A DNA stretch of 64,000 nt from Octopus sinensis (GCF_006345805.1 NC_042998.1:41416001-41480000), one strand, 5' to 3'; shown: positions 1,101 to 60,416, counted from the stretch's first letter. Program-made: numbers and translations. Notes: a model not told the origin generated them from the sequence alone.

Positions 1101-2980
1101 TATATATATATAATATGTGTGTATATCAACATACATAAAATAATAATAACAACAATAATAATAATAATAAAGTATTAACCAGTAAGAAAAAGTAAGTACA
1201 CTGCTAGAGCCATTTGTATAAAAGAATTAAAATTTCTGATGTTTACATTCATGACATTTTAGTTATGTGGTGCATGTGTACAATAAGGTAAATTTCACCA
1301 ACCTTTTGGCAATGATAGTGAGAGCATGACATGTTACATTTTGTTTTAATAAAGTCAGTTGGAAAATATCTCTGCAACTGCTAGACACATCTGAAAGAGA
1401 GAAATAAAACCATTCCATTCAAGTTGGTATAAGCACAAAATGATTGAGACAATATATGGTGAACACTAGCAATTGCTCAAAGAAGCAAGTGAGCTCAGTC
1501 TGAAATAACCATTGTCAAGAACATTGTACACATGCACTGGAACTAACATACTTCCTTTGGTTTGAAGTAAAAGGTGCAAAAGACTAGAATGTATGAGTTA
1601 CTGTCATAGCACCAAATATTCTGATAGCAATAAAAAACATACTTCACAAAACAAAAACCAACCAGATATGTGATAAGATGGCTGCTTATCTTCACTACAT
1701 ATTAGATTATCTTGTGTTTATGTGTAATTTGTCAAACATTTTGAATAATCAGTACAAAAACTGAAATACTCTGTTAAGTCTTCTTGTCAGTTTTGTGTTT
1801 TGATACTTCTGGATTCTTCTAACAAGTTATGTGTAAGCAAGCAAATGATGACAATCACAAGAAAATCAAAGACTATTAGATTCTCATTAAACAGGAATTT
1901 AAGAAAACTTGAGACTTCTGTAGTAGTTATAAATTCCTATCAGCTGATGGTTTACATACCTTATCCACAGTTACAATTTGGAATTATAAACAAACAACTT
2001 TTATGATAACTGGACTCATTGTAGTCACCAGATCCCTAAATTCATATTTTCTAAACAGCACACTTATCTAATTTAATGTGTAAATATCTGAGATTAGCCT
2101 TGCCTTTAATGATAAAAATTCTTTCAGTATTTACACCTACTCTATATTTTAATTGGTTTGATAACCAGTCATCTTCAGATGTTTACTTTCTGGATGTATA
2201 TGTAGTAGCAGATTCTGCATTAGAAGTAAGAGCTAGAAACCTTTATTTCTAAACTCAGGGTAATTTAAGAACATTATTAAATTTTGAAATAAACATTACA
2301 AGTTTGAATCCTGCATATTACTATGTCGTCAGCAAACCCTCAGGCTAGGGATGATTGTCCTCCAGATTTGAAAATCTGCAAGATTATGTTTAGCATAGAA
2401 AAGTTGTTGAACACCTGTTTCCTCACAATCTTGACAATGAAATTATCTTGAATCAGTAGCTAGGGGTCCAAGACAATTGGAGTTAGCAACCTGTTACTGC
2501 CACCATCTGCAATCACATGCATTGAAGATTTGTTACCCACCTTCACCTTTCTTCCAAACTTCTAACTTCACTGTCTCCTGACATGTGAGAAAGAGAGATT
2601 GTTAGCACATGTCTGAGCTGCCAGTTCAAGTGTCCAGAGAGAAGGGATGACTTAATGTCTTGTATACAGGCTGGTTCCAAGGAGTGTTTTGCACTATTTC
2701 TCTACTACTATATACATATCTAGGAATATGACACATAATTATGAACTGAGATCAAATCATCTGAAACAATGTAAACATAATAGAAATATTAAAATAACTA
2801 AGTCTCTCTAAAAGAGAACAGCGGCAGCGTTCCCGGAAAATAATAGTTATCGCCATAATATGCCGCTGTTCTCTTTTAGAGAGACTTAGTTATTTTAATA
2901 TTTCTATTATTGAAAACAAGTGGATGTATTCCACTGAAACTAGGTAAATAAAACCATCGAACAGAGATTGTCGGAAGCGA

Positions 2981-3058
2981 CACCTACTGGCTGGCTACGC
3001 TGCATTGAAAAGGGGCAATACCCCGAAACGCGTCTGTAGCTGCCGGTCAAGTAGTGTG
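2981..3058 (+). ncRNA. Type I minimal hammerhead ribozyme, copy 1 (U3-A8 variant)
   Basis: Stem I gctgca/tgtagc, core TTGAAAA, stem II gggg-caata-cccc, GAAA, stem III c-gc-g then TC; predicted cleavage after GTC at 3034. Stem I extends via ctactggctggc/gccggtc(a)agtag. Confidence 0.8.
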
Positions 3059-3342
3059 GAGCGACTGACCTCCCTTGTTCGAAGGTTATATGGATACAGT
3101 TTGTGTATCAAATAGCTAACTTAAGGCGATGGCCTCATGGAGCTAATAAGCGGACAGCTTTTTTCTTATTTTTATAAGAATGCCATATTAGTATGGCGAT
3201 AACTATTATTTTCCGGGAACGCTGCCGCTGTTCTCTTTTAGAGAGACTTAGTTATTTTAATATTTCTATTATTGAAAACAAGTGGATGTATTCCACTGAA
3301 ACTAGGTAAATAAAACCATCGAACAGAGATTGTCGGAAGCGA

Positions 3343-3420
3343 CACCTACTGGCTGGCTACGCTGCATTGAAAAGGGGCAATACCCCGAAACGCGTCTGTA
3401 GCTGCCGGTCAAGTAGTGTG
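3343..3420 (+). ncRNA. Hammerhead ribozyme, copy 2
   Basis: Same motif as copy 1 at +362; predicted cleavage after 3396. Confidence 0.8.
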
Positions 3421-3704
3421 GAGCGACTGACCTCCCTTGTTCGAAGGTTATATGGATACAGTTTGTGTATCAAATAGCTAACTTAAGGTGATGGCCTCAT
3501 GGAGCTAATAAGCGGACAGCTTTTTTCTTATTTTTATAAGAATGCCATATTAGTATGGCGATAACTATTATTTTCCGGGAACGCTGCCGCTGTTCTCTTT
3601 TAGAGAGACTTAGTTATTTTAATATTTCTATTATTGAAAACAAGTGGATGTATTCCACTGAAACTAGGTAAATAAAACCATCGAACAGAGATTGTCGGAA
3701 GCGA

Positions 3705-3782
3705 CACCTACTGGCTGGCTACGCTGCATTGAAAAGGGGCAATACCCCGAAACGCGTCTGTAGCTGCCGGTCAAGTAGTGTG
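3705..3782 (+). ncRNA. Hammerhead ribozyme, copy 3
   Basis: Same motif at +724; predicted cleavage after 3758. Confidence 0.8.
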
Positions 3783-4066
3783 GAGTGACTGACCTCCCTT
3801 GTTCGAAGGTTATATGGATACAGTTTGTGTATCAAATAGCTAACTTAAGGCGATGGCCTCATGGAGCTAATAAGCGGACAGCTTTTTTCTTATTTTTATA
3901 AGAATGCCATATTAGTATGGCGATAACTATTATTTTCCGGGAACGCTGCTGCTGTTCTCTTTTAGAGAGACTTAGTTATTTTAATATTTCTATTATTGAA
4001 AACAAGTGGATGTATTCCACTGAAACTAGGTAAATAAAACCATCGAACAGAGATTGTCGGAAGCGA

Positions 4067-21553: not shown

Positions 21554-22605
21554 TTCCTCCCATCACTTTCTCTTCTTCCTCTTTCAGTTTTCATCTAAAA
21601 CATTTTTTTTTTCTCTATGCTGTGAAATGTTAGCCACTTCCACAGTAAAGTAACATTTGTGTAATGCTCCTAGTTGCTTTCTTTTCCTTATTACTACACC
21701 CCATCGTCTTCTCATTCTCATTCATACACACACACCTCTCCATGTGGGTCTGTTTCTGCTGGGATATTATTGCTTGTTCCAGTCAAGACGCCTGCAGCAG
21801 CAGTAGCTATAGTAGTATGAAACACATCCTCCTACTATCACTCCTTTAACAATACTCATTACTTCTCCTGTTACATTAGTCTCCTCCTCTGGTATTTCCA
21901 TTCATGGAAAATACACTGCTATGATCCCCTAAATACTGTTGTCTGTTAGGGCTGACTGGCTGCCTTTTCACTTTCGCCTTTCTTTCCACTATCATTAATA
22001 CCGTTACCCTCTAGGAAAAGTCTATCAAATTGGTAGATACTTTACAATATATATCAACCAGACATAGACTACTGGCCAGTTTAACTCTAAATTGCTTGAA
22101 AAAATTGATTAAGAACAATCCGTTTGGAATGTCAAGTAGTATAGATTTCCTTGGGATGCTTTCTTTTTTAGCATAGTACTAGACCACTTGAGTGCCTGTG
22201 ATTTGCCAGCTGTCTTATGTGTTGTATCCATTCATAACACTTAGCAGTTGAGAAGGAGGTAGAGGAGGTGGAGAAAGTTTTCTTCTGCTGTTGTTTTTGT
22301 GTTTCCACTAAGATTACCCACAACTGAGCAACCAGTCGGTTACATCCTAGAGAAAATGCTCCATAGTTTATACTTTTGTTGACAAAATGACCAACCGGCT
22401 ACCAACAGTTTTTGTTCAACTCCCTTTTATACACTCAATCTACAAGTAATGTTATATCAAATCTCAAAAGGAAACTTGTTGCAAACACAATCTACCAAAA
22501 ATGATAATTTGACTATGGGGTTTACCTGACTGCCTTAAGTTGTAGTCAGATGGTGCAACTGAAGGAACCCTGGCCCACAGGCTTGCATTGCATTTTTCTC
22601 CTTGT
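21480..22605 (+). promoter_or_regulatory. Putative internal promoter / long 5' UTR of the short dystrophin isoform
   Basis: About 1.1 kb free of recognisable transposon sequence directly upstream of the candidate first exon, with (CA)n, CT-rich tracts, (CAG)n and (GGA)n runs. Inference only. Confidence 0.3.
21504..21551. repeat. (CA)n microsatellite
   Basis: Read directly from the sequence. Confidence 0.95.
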
Positions 22606-22656
22606 ATGATAGAAATTAATCTGAACCTGCAAGCCGTGTTAACTGAGTTTGAGCAG
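22606..22656 (+). CDS. Candidate alternative first coding exon of a short (Dp116-like) dystrophin isoform, MIEINLNLQAVLTEFEQ
   Basis: ATG 22606 is the first in-frame ATG after TAG 22543-22545; 17 codons end at a consensus donor CAG|GTAAGA in phase 0, matching the phase-0 acceptor at 46339. Unique, non-repeat, less AT-rich context. No transcript evidence available. Confidence 0.55.
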
Positions 22657-25600
22657 GTAAGATAACTTCATAAATACACTATATCTACTTATGTTGCAAC
22701 ACTTAAGTTTATTCAATTTTCTAACTTCAAACTATATTGAGCATATAAATATATACATATATATATTTCTCTTTAAGATGTTTTTCACCTTATCTAACTG
22801 GTAATTTACCTTGTGTGAAAATCTTCAATATCACTTAATAAATTATTGAATTTAATTATTTGATATCAAAATGTTACTTTTATCTCTAATTTTTTTTAGG
22901 CTCTAATTGAAATCATAATTTTAAGTGTATGTTGTGTGTAGCATTTACATATACATAGCAAGAGTGAGTTATGTGTGTTGTTGAAAGAATAAAGCTTACT
23001 TACGTTGATTAATGTTTTACAATGTTTAAATAATGTTACGTTGGTTTTTAAAATAACTTATGAAAATATTTCAACAGTTTTATAAATCTTAAATTTCTTC
23101 ACTGAATATGTAGACACACATTCTTAAGTATCTTTTTAGATTATATTTGAAATACCTTGTTAATAAATAATTGTCTAATATTCATACCTCTAATCCCTAT
23201 AAAACTTATAAAAATTGTAAAGTATCATTTGTAAATTGATAAACAAGTATATTTTTCTATCATCTTCACTTTTGTTTCTCTGTTATTCTGAAATGCAAGA
23301 GTAGAAGATAAGGCCTTCATACTTTATTTTATATTTACATTATATTTTGATCTGTATAGTCACCAATCGTCTTTTGCTGCAGTGCACACACATACACATG
23401 CATGCATGCACATACAAACAGTCATACACTTTTGAGCTACACTTCTACTCAAACTATATTGTAATTCATAGTTTATGTTCATAGCCATTAGGGAGTGTGT
23501 CAATTAAGAGTAGATAGAATACAGGATGAATAGAAACACAAAAGATTGAGCTAAAACATATTAAGCTTATAATCAAGATACATACCCCCTTCCCCAGTTT
23601 TCTCTTATGTACTTTGTAGTGTTAATCTGGATATTTACAAACCTGATAAAACTTTGAAAGTTTTACCTGACTCAATCACATACAGCATTATAATATGAAT
23701 TATAAACAGTATTTTTAATTATCTGCTTAATCTCATTAGAATTTGAATTTAACTTCTTTGATAGTGTTTATAATATAAACACTTTAATAAAAGAAAGGAA
23801 CAATAATTCCTAAATTAAAAATATTCTTAAATATTTTTTCTAAATACTTTCAAATATATTAATATAGACATTTATCATCAGATTCCAACTATAAATATTT
23901 TAGTATATGCTAATCTCTGCTCAGAAAATGTTAAATCTAATTAATCAGTATTCTATATTGCTCTTTAATCAAAACAGAATGTTTTATCTCTGTTTAGTTT
24001 TCGAGGGTTTTTCCCTCTTGCTCCCATTTCCTATGTTCCAACCTCCAATATCATTCATTTTATAAACAAATTTAACAATCTGTTTCTCTTTTATACACCA
24101 CTTTGGATGATGTATCAAATTTTACTGAACTAAATATATAGCCCAGAAGCTTCTCTTATTTTTATATTTATTTTTGAGAAGTTAACCATTGTTTATATGT
24201 TAGGGGAGTTTTCAGCTAACTTTTCCTATAACCCAATTTTACAAAATAGCCTGAGTTAGAATGTTTACAAAAACTAAGAAGCTAAAACCAAACAGGCTAA
24301 AATAACAAAACTTTTCTTAGATTTATCTGCAATATAATAGAAGTTAATCAGATATTTATGATGTTATTTTTGTAACAGTATGTGTATAGTTGTTAGACAG
24401 GCAGATATTGCTGTGTATGGTTAGGCAGACATATTTTTGAAATTGTTTTTGTTGTTAGAATAATTCTATGTCTAATACATTACTGCAATTTAACATCTTT
24501 CAGTTGTCCCTGTTGAGTTTATCCTAAAAGGTTACTGGATTTCAAAATAACAGGTCACTGATTGATGTATCTCATCGTCATCATCATTTCCATTTTGCAT
24601 GCCAGTGTATGTTAGATGAATCTGAAATACAATATTGATCCATGTGTTGTAATTCTACATTATAATTTTTCTGAAGTTTACTTCCCTCAGGTTTCTTCTG
24701 TCTTTTTTATGTTTATTTTTATAAGTCAGAGGGCAGTGCCTGTATCCTCTGCAGGCCCCTTAGACTGGTGAAATTCATGGACAATTGTAGGGCAATGTCT
24801 GAAGAGAAATATGTGTATAAAAAGAACAGGGAATCTTGTCTAAATGGAACAGAGGGAACTATGTTTAAGGAACCTAAGGATTGAGTGTAGTGTTAAGGTT
24901 TCTTCCTAGGTCTTATTTTAATCTTCCTTTACTATTTAGTTCACATACCAACTCATCACACATCATAACCCAGATGGTTTCCATTTGTATCACCATTCAA
25001 ACTGATACAGTCATCTCTCCTACATAAATCTTCCGGTACTTTTGATACCTGGTTGCTACGATTCAAGCATTTTATTGATCTCAGCTTGGAATTTCCCTTC
25101 AGCTCCTGTCATAAATGCGTAACAAAAAGAATTAAAATAATTTTTCAGGAACTTGTCAATAATTAATAATGCTTCAATGTTGGTATTAATTTTGACTCAT
25201 TTGTGTCTGCTTTATGATATTGTTCACTTGGATTTTCCTTTGTGTATATTTGTATTTGTAACCTCTTATTTGTATAATTATAGTATATTAATGCAATAAA
25301 TGTTCCAAGCATACTACTGGTCTATTTATATACGAAGAATGTTCAACAGAATAGCAAAAAAACGTTGATGCTGGTTCTCAGTCATTCATTTCAATTATCA
25401 TACTTGAAACTAAGAGAAATGCATTTCTGAAAGAAAGAAATATGATGAAATTTTTCTTTTTTCTTTCTTTTTTTTCACTGAAAAAGTAATAACTAACTAA
25501 ATATAATGTGGCAGACATGTTTGATTGAGTGAGTGTTAAATTGAATTATTTCAGGAAATCAAACTATTTCATAAAATCTCTCATGTAACCCTTTTCTCTT

Positions 25601-46338: not shown

Positions 46339-46508
46339 GAAATTCAGGCAGAAGTAGATTCTCACCAAAATGCTTATGAATCATTAACAAGTGCTGGTAA
46401 TCAACTTGCAAGAACCATGGTAGCACAAGATACTACACAGCTTCATCATCGTCTGGAGGAGATGAACCAGCGATGGCTCACATTGATGACCACCTCAATG
46501 GAAATCAG
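46339..46508 (+). CDS. DMD: Dystrophin-family exon (equivalent to vertebrate DMD exon 56; spectrin repeat), EIQAEVDSHQNAYESLTSAGNQLARTMVAQDTTQLHHRLEEMNQRWLTLMTTSMEI(R)
   Basis: Acceptor ttttgttttcatag|GAA and donor ATCAG|gtatgc; 170 nt, phase 0 in, phase 2 out. Hand translation resembles human DLQGEIEAH...LQRRLDNMNFKWSELRKKSLNIR (recalled). Not in the supplied ORF track. Confidence 0.93.
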
Positions 46509-47539: not shown

Positions 47540-48685
47540 ATGTGCAGAAAATTAGACTCCATCAACTGCCAGAGGGGAAAGAAGCTAGAGGTAGTAGATA
47601 GCTTCTGGTATCTAGGTGACCAAGTTAGTAGTAGAGGTGGTTGTTCCTAGAGCATAGCTGTGAGAATAAGATTAGGCTGGGCAATAGTTCAGAGAGCTCC
47701 TACCCCTGCTGGCAACAAAGAGCCTTCCTCTCAGAGTGAAAGGCAGGTTGTTTGATGCCTGTGTACAAACAGCTATGCTGCATGGCAGTGAAACATGCTG
47801 AGTATAACAGCTGAGGACATGCATAGGCTTGAGAAAAATGAAGCCAGTATGCTTCGCTGGATGTGCAATGTCAATGTACATGTTCAACAGAGTGTAAGCA
47901 TCTTGAGAGAAAATTTAGGCATAAGAGGAATCAGATGTGGTGTGTAAGAGAGATGACTGTGCTGGTATGGTCATGTGATGCGTATGGATGAAGACAGCTG
48001 TGTAAAAATATGCCAATCTTTAACTGTAGGGGGAACTTGTGGTAGAGATAGACCCAGGAAGACATGGAACAAGGTGGTGAAGCTTGACCTTCAAACTTTG
48101 AACCTCACACAGGCAATGACTGGTGACCAAGACCTTTAGTGATGTGCTCTGCTTAAGGGGACCTGTCTAGCCAAGTGCACCTGTACTGGTGGCACATAAA
48201 AAAAAACCTTTGAACGTTGGGCCTCACAAAGGCAAAGTGGTTGAGTTCCTTTCAAACATTGGGCCTCATGGAGGCATAGTGGCTGTTTTCCTTTCAAGTG
48301 TTGGGCCTCACGGAGGGGAGGTAGCTGAGTTCCTCTTGAGCAGGCTTCACGGAAGTGAGGTGGCTGCGTTCCTTTCGAGCACTGGGCTTCATGAAGGCAA
48401 AGTGGCCAAGCTCCTTTCGAGTGTTGGGTCTTGTGGAGGCAACAACCAAGACCTTTGGCATTATGTTGTGCTTGGGAAGAAGAGCCATCAAGCCGAGCAA
48501 AATCACAGTTGTGGCAGTTACCGGTGTCAAACAAATGGCACCCATGCTAATGGCATGTAAAAGCATCTCTGACACTCTCAGAGTGTTTGGCATTAGGAAG
48601 GGCATCCAGCTGTAGAAAACCATGTCAAATCAGACTGAAGCCTAGTGCAGCATGCCAGCCCAGTCAAACCACCCAACACATGCCG
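47540..48685 (+). mobile_element. 5'-truncated RTE-clade LINE (RT C-terminus plus 3' UTR)
   Basis: Hand translation KLEVVDSFWYLGD...RELLPLL...KGRLFDACVQTAMLHGSET...MLRWMC...WYGHVMRMDEDSCVK...GRDRPRKTW with stops and frameshifts, followed by the tail seen in several short repeats here. Confidence 0.9.
48207..48441 (+). repeat. ~42-bp minisatellite (~5.6 copies) inside the RTE 3' UTR
   Basis: Units near cctttcgagcgttgggcctcacggaggcaaagtggctgagtt start at 48207, 48248, 48290, 48332, 48371 and 48413. Confidence 0.85.
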
Positions 48686-51491: not shown

Positions 51492-51648
51492 AGGGCGTTT
51501 GGAGAGTAATGCAGAACAATGGACACACTTGTTACTTCAACTACAAGACCTTACTAGTTGGATCACTCAACAGCAAAGAATGCTCATCTCCCAACAACCT
51601 GTTGGAGGAGATTTGCAATTGGTTCAACAGCAAAATGAAGAAAATCAG
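51492..51648 (+). CDS. DMD: Dystrophin-family exon (DMD exon 57 equivalent), (R)GRLESNAEQWTHLLLQLQDLTSWITQQQRMLISQQPVGGDLQLVQQQNEENQ
   Basis: Acceptor ttctgttttag|A completes the AG/A Arg codon from the previous exon; donor CAG|gtaaat; 157 nt. Spectrin-repeat Trp and PVGGD motif resemble human SHLEASSDQW...QAPIGGDFPAVQKQ. Overlaps ORF 51469..51672. Confidence 0.95.
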
Positions 51649-51757: not shown

Positions 51758-51887
51758 AGATTGAGAGATCAGCTAGATTTAAAGCGTCCTGTAGTTGAAC
51801 AGAATCTTGAAGCAGGAAGGTATTACCTACGTGAAGAGGGTGAAGAAAGACGACTCAGTACAGATAGTTCAGAAAGTGTGGAGCTAG
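51758..51887 (+). CDS. DMD: Dystrophin-family exon (DMD exon 58 equivalent), RLRDQLDLKRPVVEQNLEAGRYYLREEGEERRLSTDSSESVEL
   Basis: Acceptor aatttccccag|AGA and donor CTAG|gtaaat; 130 nt, phase 0 in, phase 1 out; follows a 109-nt intron. Resembles human FKRELKTKEPVIMSTLETVRIFL. Overlaps ORF 51761..52081. Confidence 0.92.
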
Positions 51888-60258: not shown

Positions 60259-60416
60259 ATGTCGAAGGGTTAACTGCTTTAGATATGTCACCTGAAAGAG
60301 AGGCACATTACCTGATCCGGAAGATTCGAAGACAAGTGAGATTAGTCAATCGCAAATGGGCAGAAATTAATCAAAGTTGCAATGAATGGCAATCACAAAT
60401 TGATGAAGTCCTTGAG
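60259..60416 (+). CDS. DMD: Dystrophin-family exon (5' part of DMD exon 59 equivalent), (D)VEGLTALDMSPEREAHYLIRKIRRQVRLVNRKWAEINQSCNEWQSQIDEVLE
   Basis: Acceptor ctttttattttacag|AT completes the G/AT Asp codon; donor GAG|gtaaga; 158 nt. Resembles human LPPEERAQNVTRLLRKQAEEVNTEWEKL...DWQRKIDETLE. Overlaps ORF 60195..60425. Confidence 0.94.

What the first reader, a model, noticed from the sequence alone, without database searches (positions are those of the whole stretch)
22546..22662. Candidate first exon of a Dp116/G-utrophin-like short dystrophin in a mollusc
Seen: ATG-MIEINLNLQAVLTEFEQ-CAG|GTAAGA with an in-frame stop upstream, joining in phase 0 to EIQAEVDSH... 23.7 kb downstream; the peptide looks like an amphipathic helix. 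Established: vertebrate Dp116 and G-utrophin start from promoters in intron 55 and splice to exon 56, and comparable short isoforms exist in other bilaterians. Inference: the same internal start exists here with a lineage-specific N-terminus. Alternative reading: acceptor ttgtag|TCA at 22546 with a CTGAC branch-like motif gives a frame-preserving 111-nt exon, SDGATEGTLAHRLALHFSPCMIEINLNLQAVLTEFEQ.
Basis: partly seen in the sequence, partly recalled or inferred. Interest (0 to 1): 0.75.

Follow-up and report, generated by a model that had tools for sequence, protein, structure and literature searches.

The report
Ancient start exon of short dystrophin
Inside a cephalopod's dystrophin gene, a hidden exon is spliced onto the gene's last third and likely starts a short dystrophin; its 17-residue lead peptide, predicted to be a helix, is matched in snails, insects and shrimps, so this start likely dates from their common ancestor.

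Summary
Real. The donor at 22656 is joined to the exon-56 homologue at 46339 in 4 of 4 RNA-type runs (4 studies, 3 organism labels). The same contigs run straight through the proposed acceptor at 22546, 245-650 nt further 5', with no upstream partner. So this is most likely an alternative first exon with a long leader, not a 111-nt cassette. The predicted product is a ~980-aa Dp116-like dystrophin. It ranks 1 of 1605 donor-adjacent 17-mers of the 90-kb intron against both sets. It does not resemble the lamprey or human peptides. AlphaFold models of homologues make it the start of the helix that exon 56 continues. Isoforms from this intron are known (Dp116, G-utrophin, SuDp98, Dp205). A shared mollusc-arthropod first-exon peptide was not found in six literature searches. 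The scan had noted shark Dp116 exons and a cephalopod membrane-anchored isoform elsewhere, not this exon. Start site, protein, tissue and partner are unshown.

The parts
21899..22605 (+). 5' leader of the alternative first exon (5' end not mapped; at least 22301-22605 in all four runs, to 21899 in the deepest). Holds 11 upstream ATGs.
   Evidence: Contig pieces, table 8; several X8 pieces begin at 21899-21900 with no loose 5' end; uATG list. Contigs cannot prove a start site.
22543..22545 (+).
   Evidence: Sequence; 4 of 4 contigs read through it, no loose end there
22550..22609 (+). Upstream ORF of 19 codons in the +1 frame whose TGA overlaps the main ATG (ATGA); role untested
22606..22656 (+). 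Coding part of the first exon: 17-aa N-terminal peptide MIEINLNLQAVLTEFEQ, conserved in snails, insects and decapods
22657..22662 (+). Splice donor GTAAGA, phase 0, used
   Evidence: Loose ends behind 22657 in 4 of 4 runs equal the start of the exon at 46339
46339..46508 (+). Homologue of dystrophin exon 56 (second half of a spectrin repeat), shared with longer isoforms
   Evidence: tblastn 93% to P0001 872-928; Pfam Spectrin profile 46-95; covered and spliced onward to 51492 in 3 of 4 runs
51492..51648 (+). Homologue of exon 57
51758..51887 (+). Homologue of exon 58
60259..60416 (+). Next dystrophin exon; the five exons give 222 codons without a stop

Best explanation
This is a spliced exon in the 90-kb intron before the exon-56 homologue of a cephalopod dystrophin gene, and it is likely the first exon of a short, Dp116-like isoform made from an internal promoter. 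Shown: transcription, the 22656^46339 junction, an open frame through four further exons, and the same 17-aa peptide in register in snail, insect and decapod gene models. Inferred: a promoter near 21.9 kb, a leader of 300-700 nt with upstream ATGs, initiation at ATG 22606, and a protein of about 983 aa (about 113 kDa) with no actin-binding domain, half a spectrin repeat, two full repeats, WW, EF-hands and ZZ. Predicted: the 17 residues lengthen the cut helix B of the half repeat so that it pairs with helix C as a hairpin lacking helix A. The conserved hydrophobic stripe would cap that half repeat (more likely, about 60%) or bind a partner helix (about 35%). By analogy with Dp116 and Dp205 the protein would scaffold a dystroglycan-syntrophin-dystrobrevin complex in a subset of tissues (untested).
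For: Junction in 4 of 4 runs from 4 studies; contigs continuous 5' of 22546 with no upstream partner. Exon-55 homologue lies 67 kb upstream at G000:C2:41371657-41371857 and has its own contig path into exon 56. Snail proteins P0005 (Candidula, 956 aa) and P0110 (Bradybaena, 955 aa) begin at the equivalent Met with 17 residues before exon 56. Eleven arthropod proteins picked by their own upstream D-[AT]-R-[FY] motif give 10 distinct 17-mers; across those, the snail and the window peptide, positions 1, 2, 4, 8, 12, 15 are hydrophobic and Glu16 is present in 12 of 12 rows; only register 0 scores positive (17.2, against -3 to -18 for shifts of 1-4). Rank 1 of 1605 GT-adjacent open 17-mers against both sets; 0 of 20000 shuffles reach the score. 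Organism C differs at 0 of 153 bases before the donor but 37 of 1314 in the flanks (Fisher p 0.03). AlphaFold of wasp P0077: disorder 1-43, helix 45-89 starting at the motif, pLDDT about 82 over residues 51-70. Promoters in this intron are reported for Dp116, G-utrophin, SuDp98 and Dp205 (PMC1790709, passages).
Against: Only contigs were available, labelled 'RNA?' by guess; they cannot show a start, strand, level or tissue. The ATG context is weak (TGT-ATG-A) and 11 ATGs lie upstream; no protein evidence. Snail and arthropod proteins are gene models, and the first set of 8 was chosen by eye. Decapod 17-mers score low on their own (2 and 5). Among all 57,735 open 17-mers of the intron (not only donor-adjacent ones), one scores higher and one ties, so the signal needs the junction position. 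Other N-termini at this junction do not match: decapod P0008/P0010, psyllid P0039, Mya P0006, Batillaria P0002, lamprey P0149. No other cephalopod family, bivalve or annelid copy was obtained. The snail model is low-confidence there (pLDDT 54-61). The exon looks like a minor path (X1 contig depth 8.9 against 154 for exon 56; depth is a poor measure).
Confidence: 0.85

Rival explanations
1. The exon is a real first exon but effectively non-coding here: ribosomes skip ATG 22606 and start at a Met inside exon 56, as reported for sea-urchin SuDp98, giving about 940 aa.
For: Weak context, 11 upstream ATGs and an overlapping uORF. Sepia pharaonis models P0099 and P0100 and Sinanodonta P0003 start at the exon-56 Met. 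SuDp98 uses an internal start (PMC1790709).
Against: Peptide conservation across molluscs and arthropods in exact register, and snail models that start at the same Met, imply selection on the translated peptide.
Confidence: 0.07
2. A 111-nt frame-preserving cassette exon (22546-22656) spliced between exons 55 and 56 of longer dystrophins.
For: Open frame, AG at 22544-45 and CTGAC upstream. No differences in organism C over 22504-22656, which includes the extra 60 nt. Contigs drop rare variants.
Against: 0 of 4 runs join at 22546; all read through it. Weak pyrimidine tract. The 20 residues before the Met score negative against all 9 arthropod sequences tested.
Confidence: 0.04
3. The likeness to arthropod peptides is convergence: any exon joined here is pushed toward a helix that packs on the half repeat, so molluscs and arthropods gained such exons separately. 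(This rival concerns ancestry only, not the exon's reality.)
For: Only 17 residues; BLOSUM scores 2-36; several unrelated first exons exist at this junction in other taxa.
Against: Same length to the junction, invariant Glu16, Phe15 in 8 of 12; exon-55's own end, which packs in the same place, scores -5 against the window peptide, and the lamprey peptide -7.
Confidence: 0.15
4. The stretch is the second exon of a multi-exon leader whose true first exon lies further upstream.
For: 5' ends of contigs differ between runs and cannot mark a start.
Against: No loose 5' end in 4 of 4 runs; five small X8 pieces begin at 21899-21900.
Confidence: 0.06

Closest known systems
Vertebrate dystrophin Dp116 (exon S1) and G-utrophin/Up113
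   Same: Alternative first exon in intron 55 joined in phase 0 to exon 56; short unique N-terminus; about 956 aa for Dp116 (PMC5664101 passages) against about 983 predicted here; same retained domains (on snail P0005).
   Different: Peptide unrelated: the lamprey isoform P0149 is basic and scores -7; the human 24-aa Dp118 peptide printed in PMC5664101 shares 2 of the last 17 positions by eye. Human S1 is 91 bp and 755 bp from exon 56; here the exon is 350-760 nt and 23.7 kb away.
Drosophila Dp205 and insect/decapod short dystrophin gene models (P0068, P0069, P0072, P0077, P0082, P0085, P0086, P0122)
   Same: Dp205 arises in the orthologous intron and has two spectrin repeats (PMC1790709, PMC2840664 passages). 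The gene models carry the same 17-residue pattern right before exon 56.
   Different: Arthropod forms have 46-480 further N-terminal residues and a D-A-R-F lead-in; molluscs start at the motif. The fly Dp205 sequence itself was not obtained, so whether it carries the motif is untested.
Land-snail dystrophin gene models CAG5122950.1 (Candidula unifasciata) and BFZ24844.1 (Bradybaena similaris)
   Same: Same architecture and 17-aa N-terminus, 6 of 17 identical; likely the orthologous isoform.
   Different: Unnamed automatic annotations; no description as an isoform found.
Sea-urchin SuDp98
   Same: Promoter in the orthologous intron (PMC1790709 passage).
   Different: Uses an internal start codon, so no first-exon peptide.

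Membership tests
Intron-55 short dystrophins (Dp116 / G-utrophin / SuDp98 / Dp205 class) | Host gene is a dystrophin/utrophin orthologue | tested here: met
   27 exon matches of P0001 in order on G000:C2; P0001 has spectrin, WW, EF-hand, ZZ and clusters with Sepia pharaonis dystrophin
Intron-55 short dystrophins (Dp116 / G-utrophin / SuDp98 / Dp205 class) | Unique exon lies in the intron orthologous to intron 55 and joins exon 56 in phase 0 | tested here: met
   Junction in 4 of 4 runs; lamprey short isoform P0149 diverges at the same residue; exon numbering itself rests on PMC5664101 and recall
Intron-55 short dystrophins (Dp116 / G-utrophin / SuDp98 / Dp205 class) | The exon is a first exon with its own promoter | tested here: inconclusive
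   No upstream partner and read-through of the only in-frame acceptor in 4 of 4 runs, but contigs cannot map a start site
Intron-55 short dystrophins (Dp116 / G-utrophin / SuDp98 / Dp205 class) | Product lacks the actin-binding domain and keeps the last repeats, WW, EF, ZZ | tested here: met
   In-frame stop before the ATG; domain scan of the snail orthologue P0005. The full octopus-type transcript was not seen as one molecule.
Intron-55 short dystrophins (Dp116 / G-utrophin / SuDp98 / Dp205 class) | Protein is made, with restricted (often neural) expression | not testable with these tools
   Run tissues are coded; no proteomics
Vertebrate Dp116/G-utrophin first exon (sequence orthologue) | Sequence similarity of the first-exon peptide to S1 / G-utrophin exon 1 | tested here: not met
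   Lamprey P0149 scores -7; human peptide from PMC5664101 2 of 17 by eye; mammalian G-utrophin peptide not obtained
Drosophila Dp205 first exon (sequence orthologue) | Fly Dp205 N-terminus ends in the same 17-residue motif | not tested
   No fly Dp205 sequence was returned; motif seen in stick insect, planthopper, moth, butterfly, wasp and decapod models

The most novel reading that the evidence does not exclude
Molluscs and arthropods inherited from the protostome ancestor one dystrophin first exon whose 17-residue helix turns the orphan half spectrin repeat into a conserved docking site for an unknown partner, a protostome counterpart of the unrelated vertebrate Dp116/G-utrophin leader; cephalopods also run a second, stronger start in the same intron.
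Probability: 0.3. Interest if true: 0.65.

Novelty: new member of a known kind. Interest (0 to 1): 0.45.

Why it matters
Jin et al. 2007 (PMC1790709) argued from position alone that the intron-55 promoter is ancient. This adds a mollusc case with splice evidence and, for protostomes, sequence-level conservation of the first-exon peptide across two superphyla. The role of the unique Dp116 N-terminus is stated to be unclear (PMC5664101); a 17-residue motif with an invariant Glu gives defined residues to mutate in tractable insects or snails. It also gives a test for dystrophin gene models: the two Sepia models seen here start inside exon 56.

Tried and rejected
No RNA holder is on record as RNA in the run search; the runs used are 'RNA?' guesses. 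X21 gave no cover of exon 56. X22, which holds next to none of the first exon's words, has one 6401-nt contig straight through exon 56: at most a weak hint of tissue or stage restriction. The upstream loose ends at 46339 were dropped next to a TA repeat, so the other partners of exon 56 could not be read. Homologue search with P0005 1-130 returned only itself (1 of 142 candidates). A degenerate pattern for the peptide found 0 matches in metagenome contigs. Pfam has no family for the 37-aa frame. The Atlas gave only generic spectrin clusters and under-the-bar helical-hairpin matches. Foldseek gave no hit at E <= 0.001; the best weak rows were spectrin repeats. Homodimer prediction of P0005 1-150: no verdict, score 0.00. 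The sigma-70 scan is irrelevant for an animal gene; no strict Inr match at 21899-21900. tblastn of other taxa's N-termini against the intron gave nothing significant. Rejected: duplicate of exon-55's end (score -5); repeat-derived sequence (single copy); circular RNA as the third partner of exon 56 (X1 contig unbranched for 2069 nt downstream). PMC2408742 and PMC2840698 were not held.

Full report
Observation. The flagged bases are as described: TAG at 22543-45, an open frame 22546-22656, ATG at 22606, donor CAG|GTAAGA, and an acceptor at 46339 that opens a spectrin-repeat exon. The 301 bases around the site occur once in the 2.72-Gb genome. The window's exons match the dystrophin P0001 at 70-93%, whose cluster holds Sepia pharaonis dystrophin.

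Gene context. P0001 maps as 27 ordered exon matches on G000:C2 (stricter first look, so a floor). The exon-55 homologue is at 41371657-41371857 and ends in a phase-0 donor. The intron to the exon at window 46339 is about 90.5 kb without gaps. The flagged exon lies 67 kb into it and 23.7 kb before its end. That 46339 is the exon-56 homologue rests on three things: a lamprey short isoform (P0149) diverging at the same residue, the Pfam match starting mid-repeat in every short form, and the Dp116 description in PMC5664101 (passages).

Splicing. Twenty of 24 listed runs hold part of 22300-22700; none is on record as RNA, and 14 of the holders are 'RNA?' guesses. I laid 4 of those 14, from 4 studies and 3 organism labels. 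In 4 of 4 a contig leaves the genome after 22657 with 25 letters identical to 46340-46364 (checked). A precise GT-AG join over 23.7 kb is itself evidence of spliced RNA. The same contigs run unbroken through 22546 to 22301, 22244, 22239 and, in X8, to 21899-21900, where five small pieces begin. No loose 5' end appears at 22546 or at these ends. This favours a first exon with a 300-700 nt leader, but contigs cannot map a start and drop rare forms. In a second lay (X1, X8, X21, X22) exon 56 was covered and joined to exon 57 in 3 of 4 runs. In X1 the exon-55 path had depth 80, the shared exon 154 and the flagged exon 8.9 (depth is a poor measure). The five exons give 222 codons with no stop. With P0001's C-terminal 966 residues as a guide, the product is about 983 aa, 113 kDa.

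The cassette reading. It needs the AG at 22545. That site has 12 pyrimidines in 20 against 14-16 at the four real acceptors, is read through in 4 of 4 runs, and its extra 20 residues score negative against 9 of 9 arthropod sequences. One point in its favour: organism C shows no differences over 22504-22656, which includes those 60 nt.

Conservation. Of 16 shorter relatives, P0005 from the land snail Candidula starts with Met plus 16 residues and then the exon-56 homologue; Bradybaena P0110 has the same 17 residues. Among 79 hits of the exon-56 peptide most are intron read-throughs. Several named insect and decapod models carry a related 17-mer before the same junction: Timema, Laodelphax, Manduca, Trichomalopsis, Leptosia, Plutella, Penaeus, Cherax, Eriocheir. 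I first picked 8 by eye. Against them the window peptide scores a mean BLOSUM62 of 19.6, rank 1 of 1605 stop-free phase-0 17-mers ending at a GT in the intron (mean -14, sd 8); it is also rank 1 against the snails; 0 of 20000 shuffles reach it. Without the junction constraint it is not unique (1 higher, 1 tie in 57,735). Redefining the set by the arthropods' own upstream motif gave 11 proteins, 10 distinct 17-mers; only register 0 scores positive; six positions are hydrophobic and Glu16 invariant in 12 of 12 rows. Of 76 other upstream segments, the three best were further decapod carriers and the next scored 4.1. Misses: a second decapod N-terminus (P0008, P0010), psyllid P0039 (8), Mya P0006, Batillaria P0002 and lamprey P0149 do not match. 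All these homologues are gene models. I obtained no copy from another cephalopod family, a bivalve or an annelid; the three organism labels are near-identical in DNA and show no difference in the 51 coding bases.

How it likely works. Shown: the exon, the junction, the frame, the conserved peptide. Inferred: an internal promoter near 21.9 kb and initiation at 22606 despite 11 upstream ATGs and a uORF whose stop overlaps the start. Predicted: exon 56 begins in helix B of a spectrin repeat (Pfam position 44-46 of 105), so the isoform lacks helix A. AlphaFold makes the peptide helical and continuous with exon 56 in the snail protein (helix 2-25, pLDDT 54-61) and in the wasp protein, where residues 1-43 are disordered and the helix starts at 45, two residues before the motif. 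Conservation and predicted helix thus begin at the same place. The conserved hydrophobic positions 1, 4, 8, 12, 15 fall on one helix face. The simplest role is to complete and cap the half repeat; a docking groove where helix A is missing, as in spectrin's tetramer site (recalled analogy), is the bolder reading. That the protein assembles a dystroglycan complex without an actin link follows by analogy with Dp116 (PMC5664101), not from a test.

What is known. [quoted passage not shown] PMC2840664 (passages) gives Dp205 two repeats and says fly N-termini are conserved among Drosophila species. Six full-text searches (listings only for the other papers) showed no mollusc short dystrophin and no mollusc-arthropod first-exon motif. 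The primary fly and sea-urchin papers were not seen, and the supplementary first-exon alignment of PMC1790709 (a .doc file) was not opened; they may bear on novelty. The scan's earlier notes cover shark Dp116 exons, which gave the lead to PMC5664101, and a membrane-anchored cephalopod isoform; none covers this exon.

Verdict. A real alternative first exon (likely), a new mollusc member of the known intron-55 class. It works like Dp116, is not a sequence orthologue of the vertebrate exon, and has a peptide shared with snails and arthropods. Interest 0.45.

Noticed in passing
L006:323-427 (G000:C2:41392322-41392426, 23.6 kb upstream of the window): Candidate second first exon in the same intron: single copy, 56% GC in a 31% intron, ATG-started 35-aa basic ORF ending at a strong phase-0 donor GGCAG|GTAGGT. 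All four junction contigs end 26 bases into exon 56, which implies another partner ending in non-A + GCAG; this is the strongest such GT donor of the intron. In X1 about 65 of 154 depth units are unaccounted for. Not tested with reads.
   Followed up: partly
L003 (G000:C2:41240648-41240807, 175 kb upstream of the window): ATG-started exon coding a hydrophobic stretch (Kyte-Doolittle 19-mer 2.9 in P0001), conserved between P0001 and snail P0111: a likely membrane-anchored half-length dystrophin start. Contigs of X1 and X22 both begin 2458 nt before exon 56, close to the 2451 nt expected for this branch. Scan note e1-9829510 reports it on other DNA.
   Followed up: partly
P0103 and P0098 (cephalopod proteins): A further internal dystrophin start with a Thr/Asn-rich N-terminus joining near P0001 residue 247; not mapped in G000.
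   Followed up: no
window 22550-22609: 19-codon uORF whose stop overlaps the main start (ATGA); no base differences there in the four runs laid. Could tune translation.
   Followed up: partly
P0008, P0010, P0073, P0120, P0124 versus P0086, P0122, P0134-P0136: Decapods have two unrelated N-termini at the same junction, so two first exons in this intron may be common.
   Followed up: no
window 46339: The first residues of exon 56 are E-I in this genome but D-L in nearly all other protostome sequences seen, including cuttlefish.
   Followed up: no
window 22658-23393: X8 holds an unspliced contig running into the intron at depth 15 against 144 for the junction: nascent RNA or DNA.
   Followed up: no
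window about 2900-4050 and 48100-48600: Repeated units about 362 bases apart seen as identical tblastn hits, and a GC-rich repeat-like stretch with overlapping ORFs.
   Followed up: no
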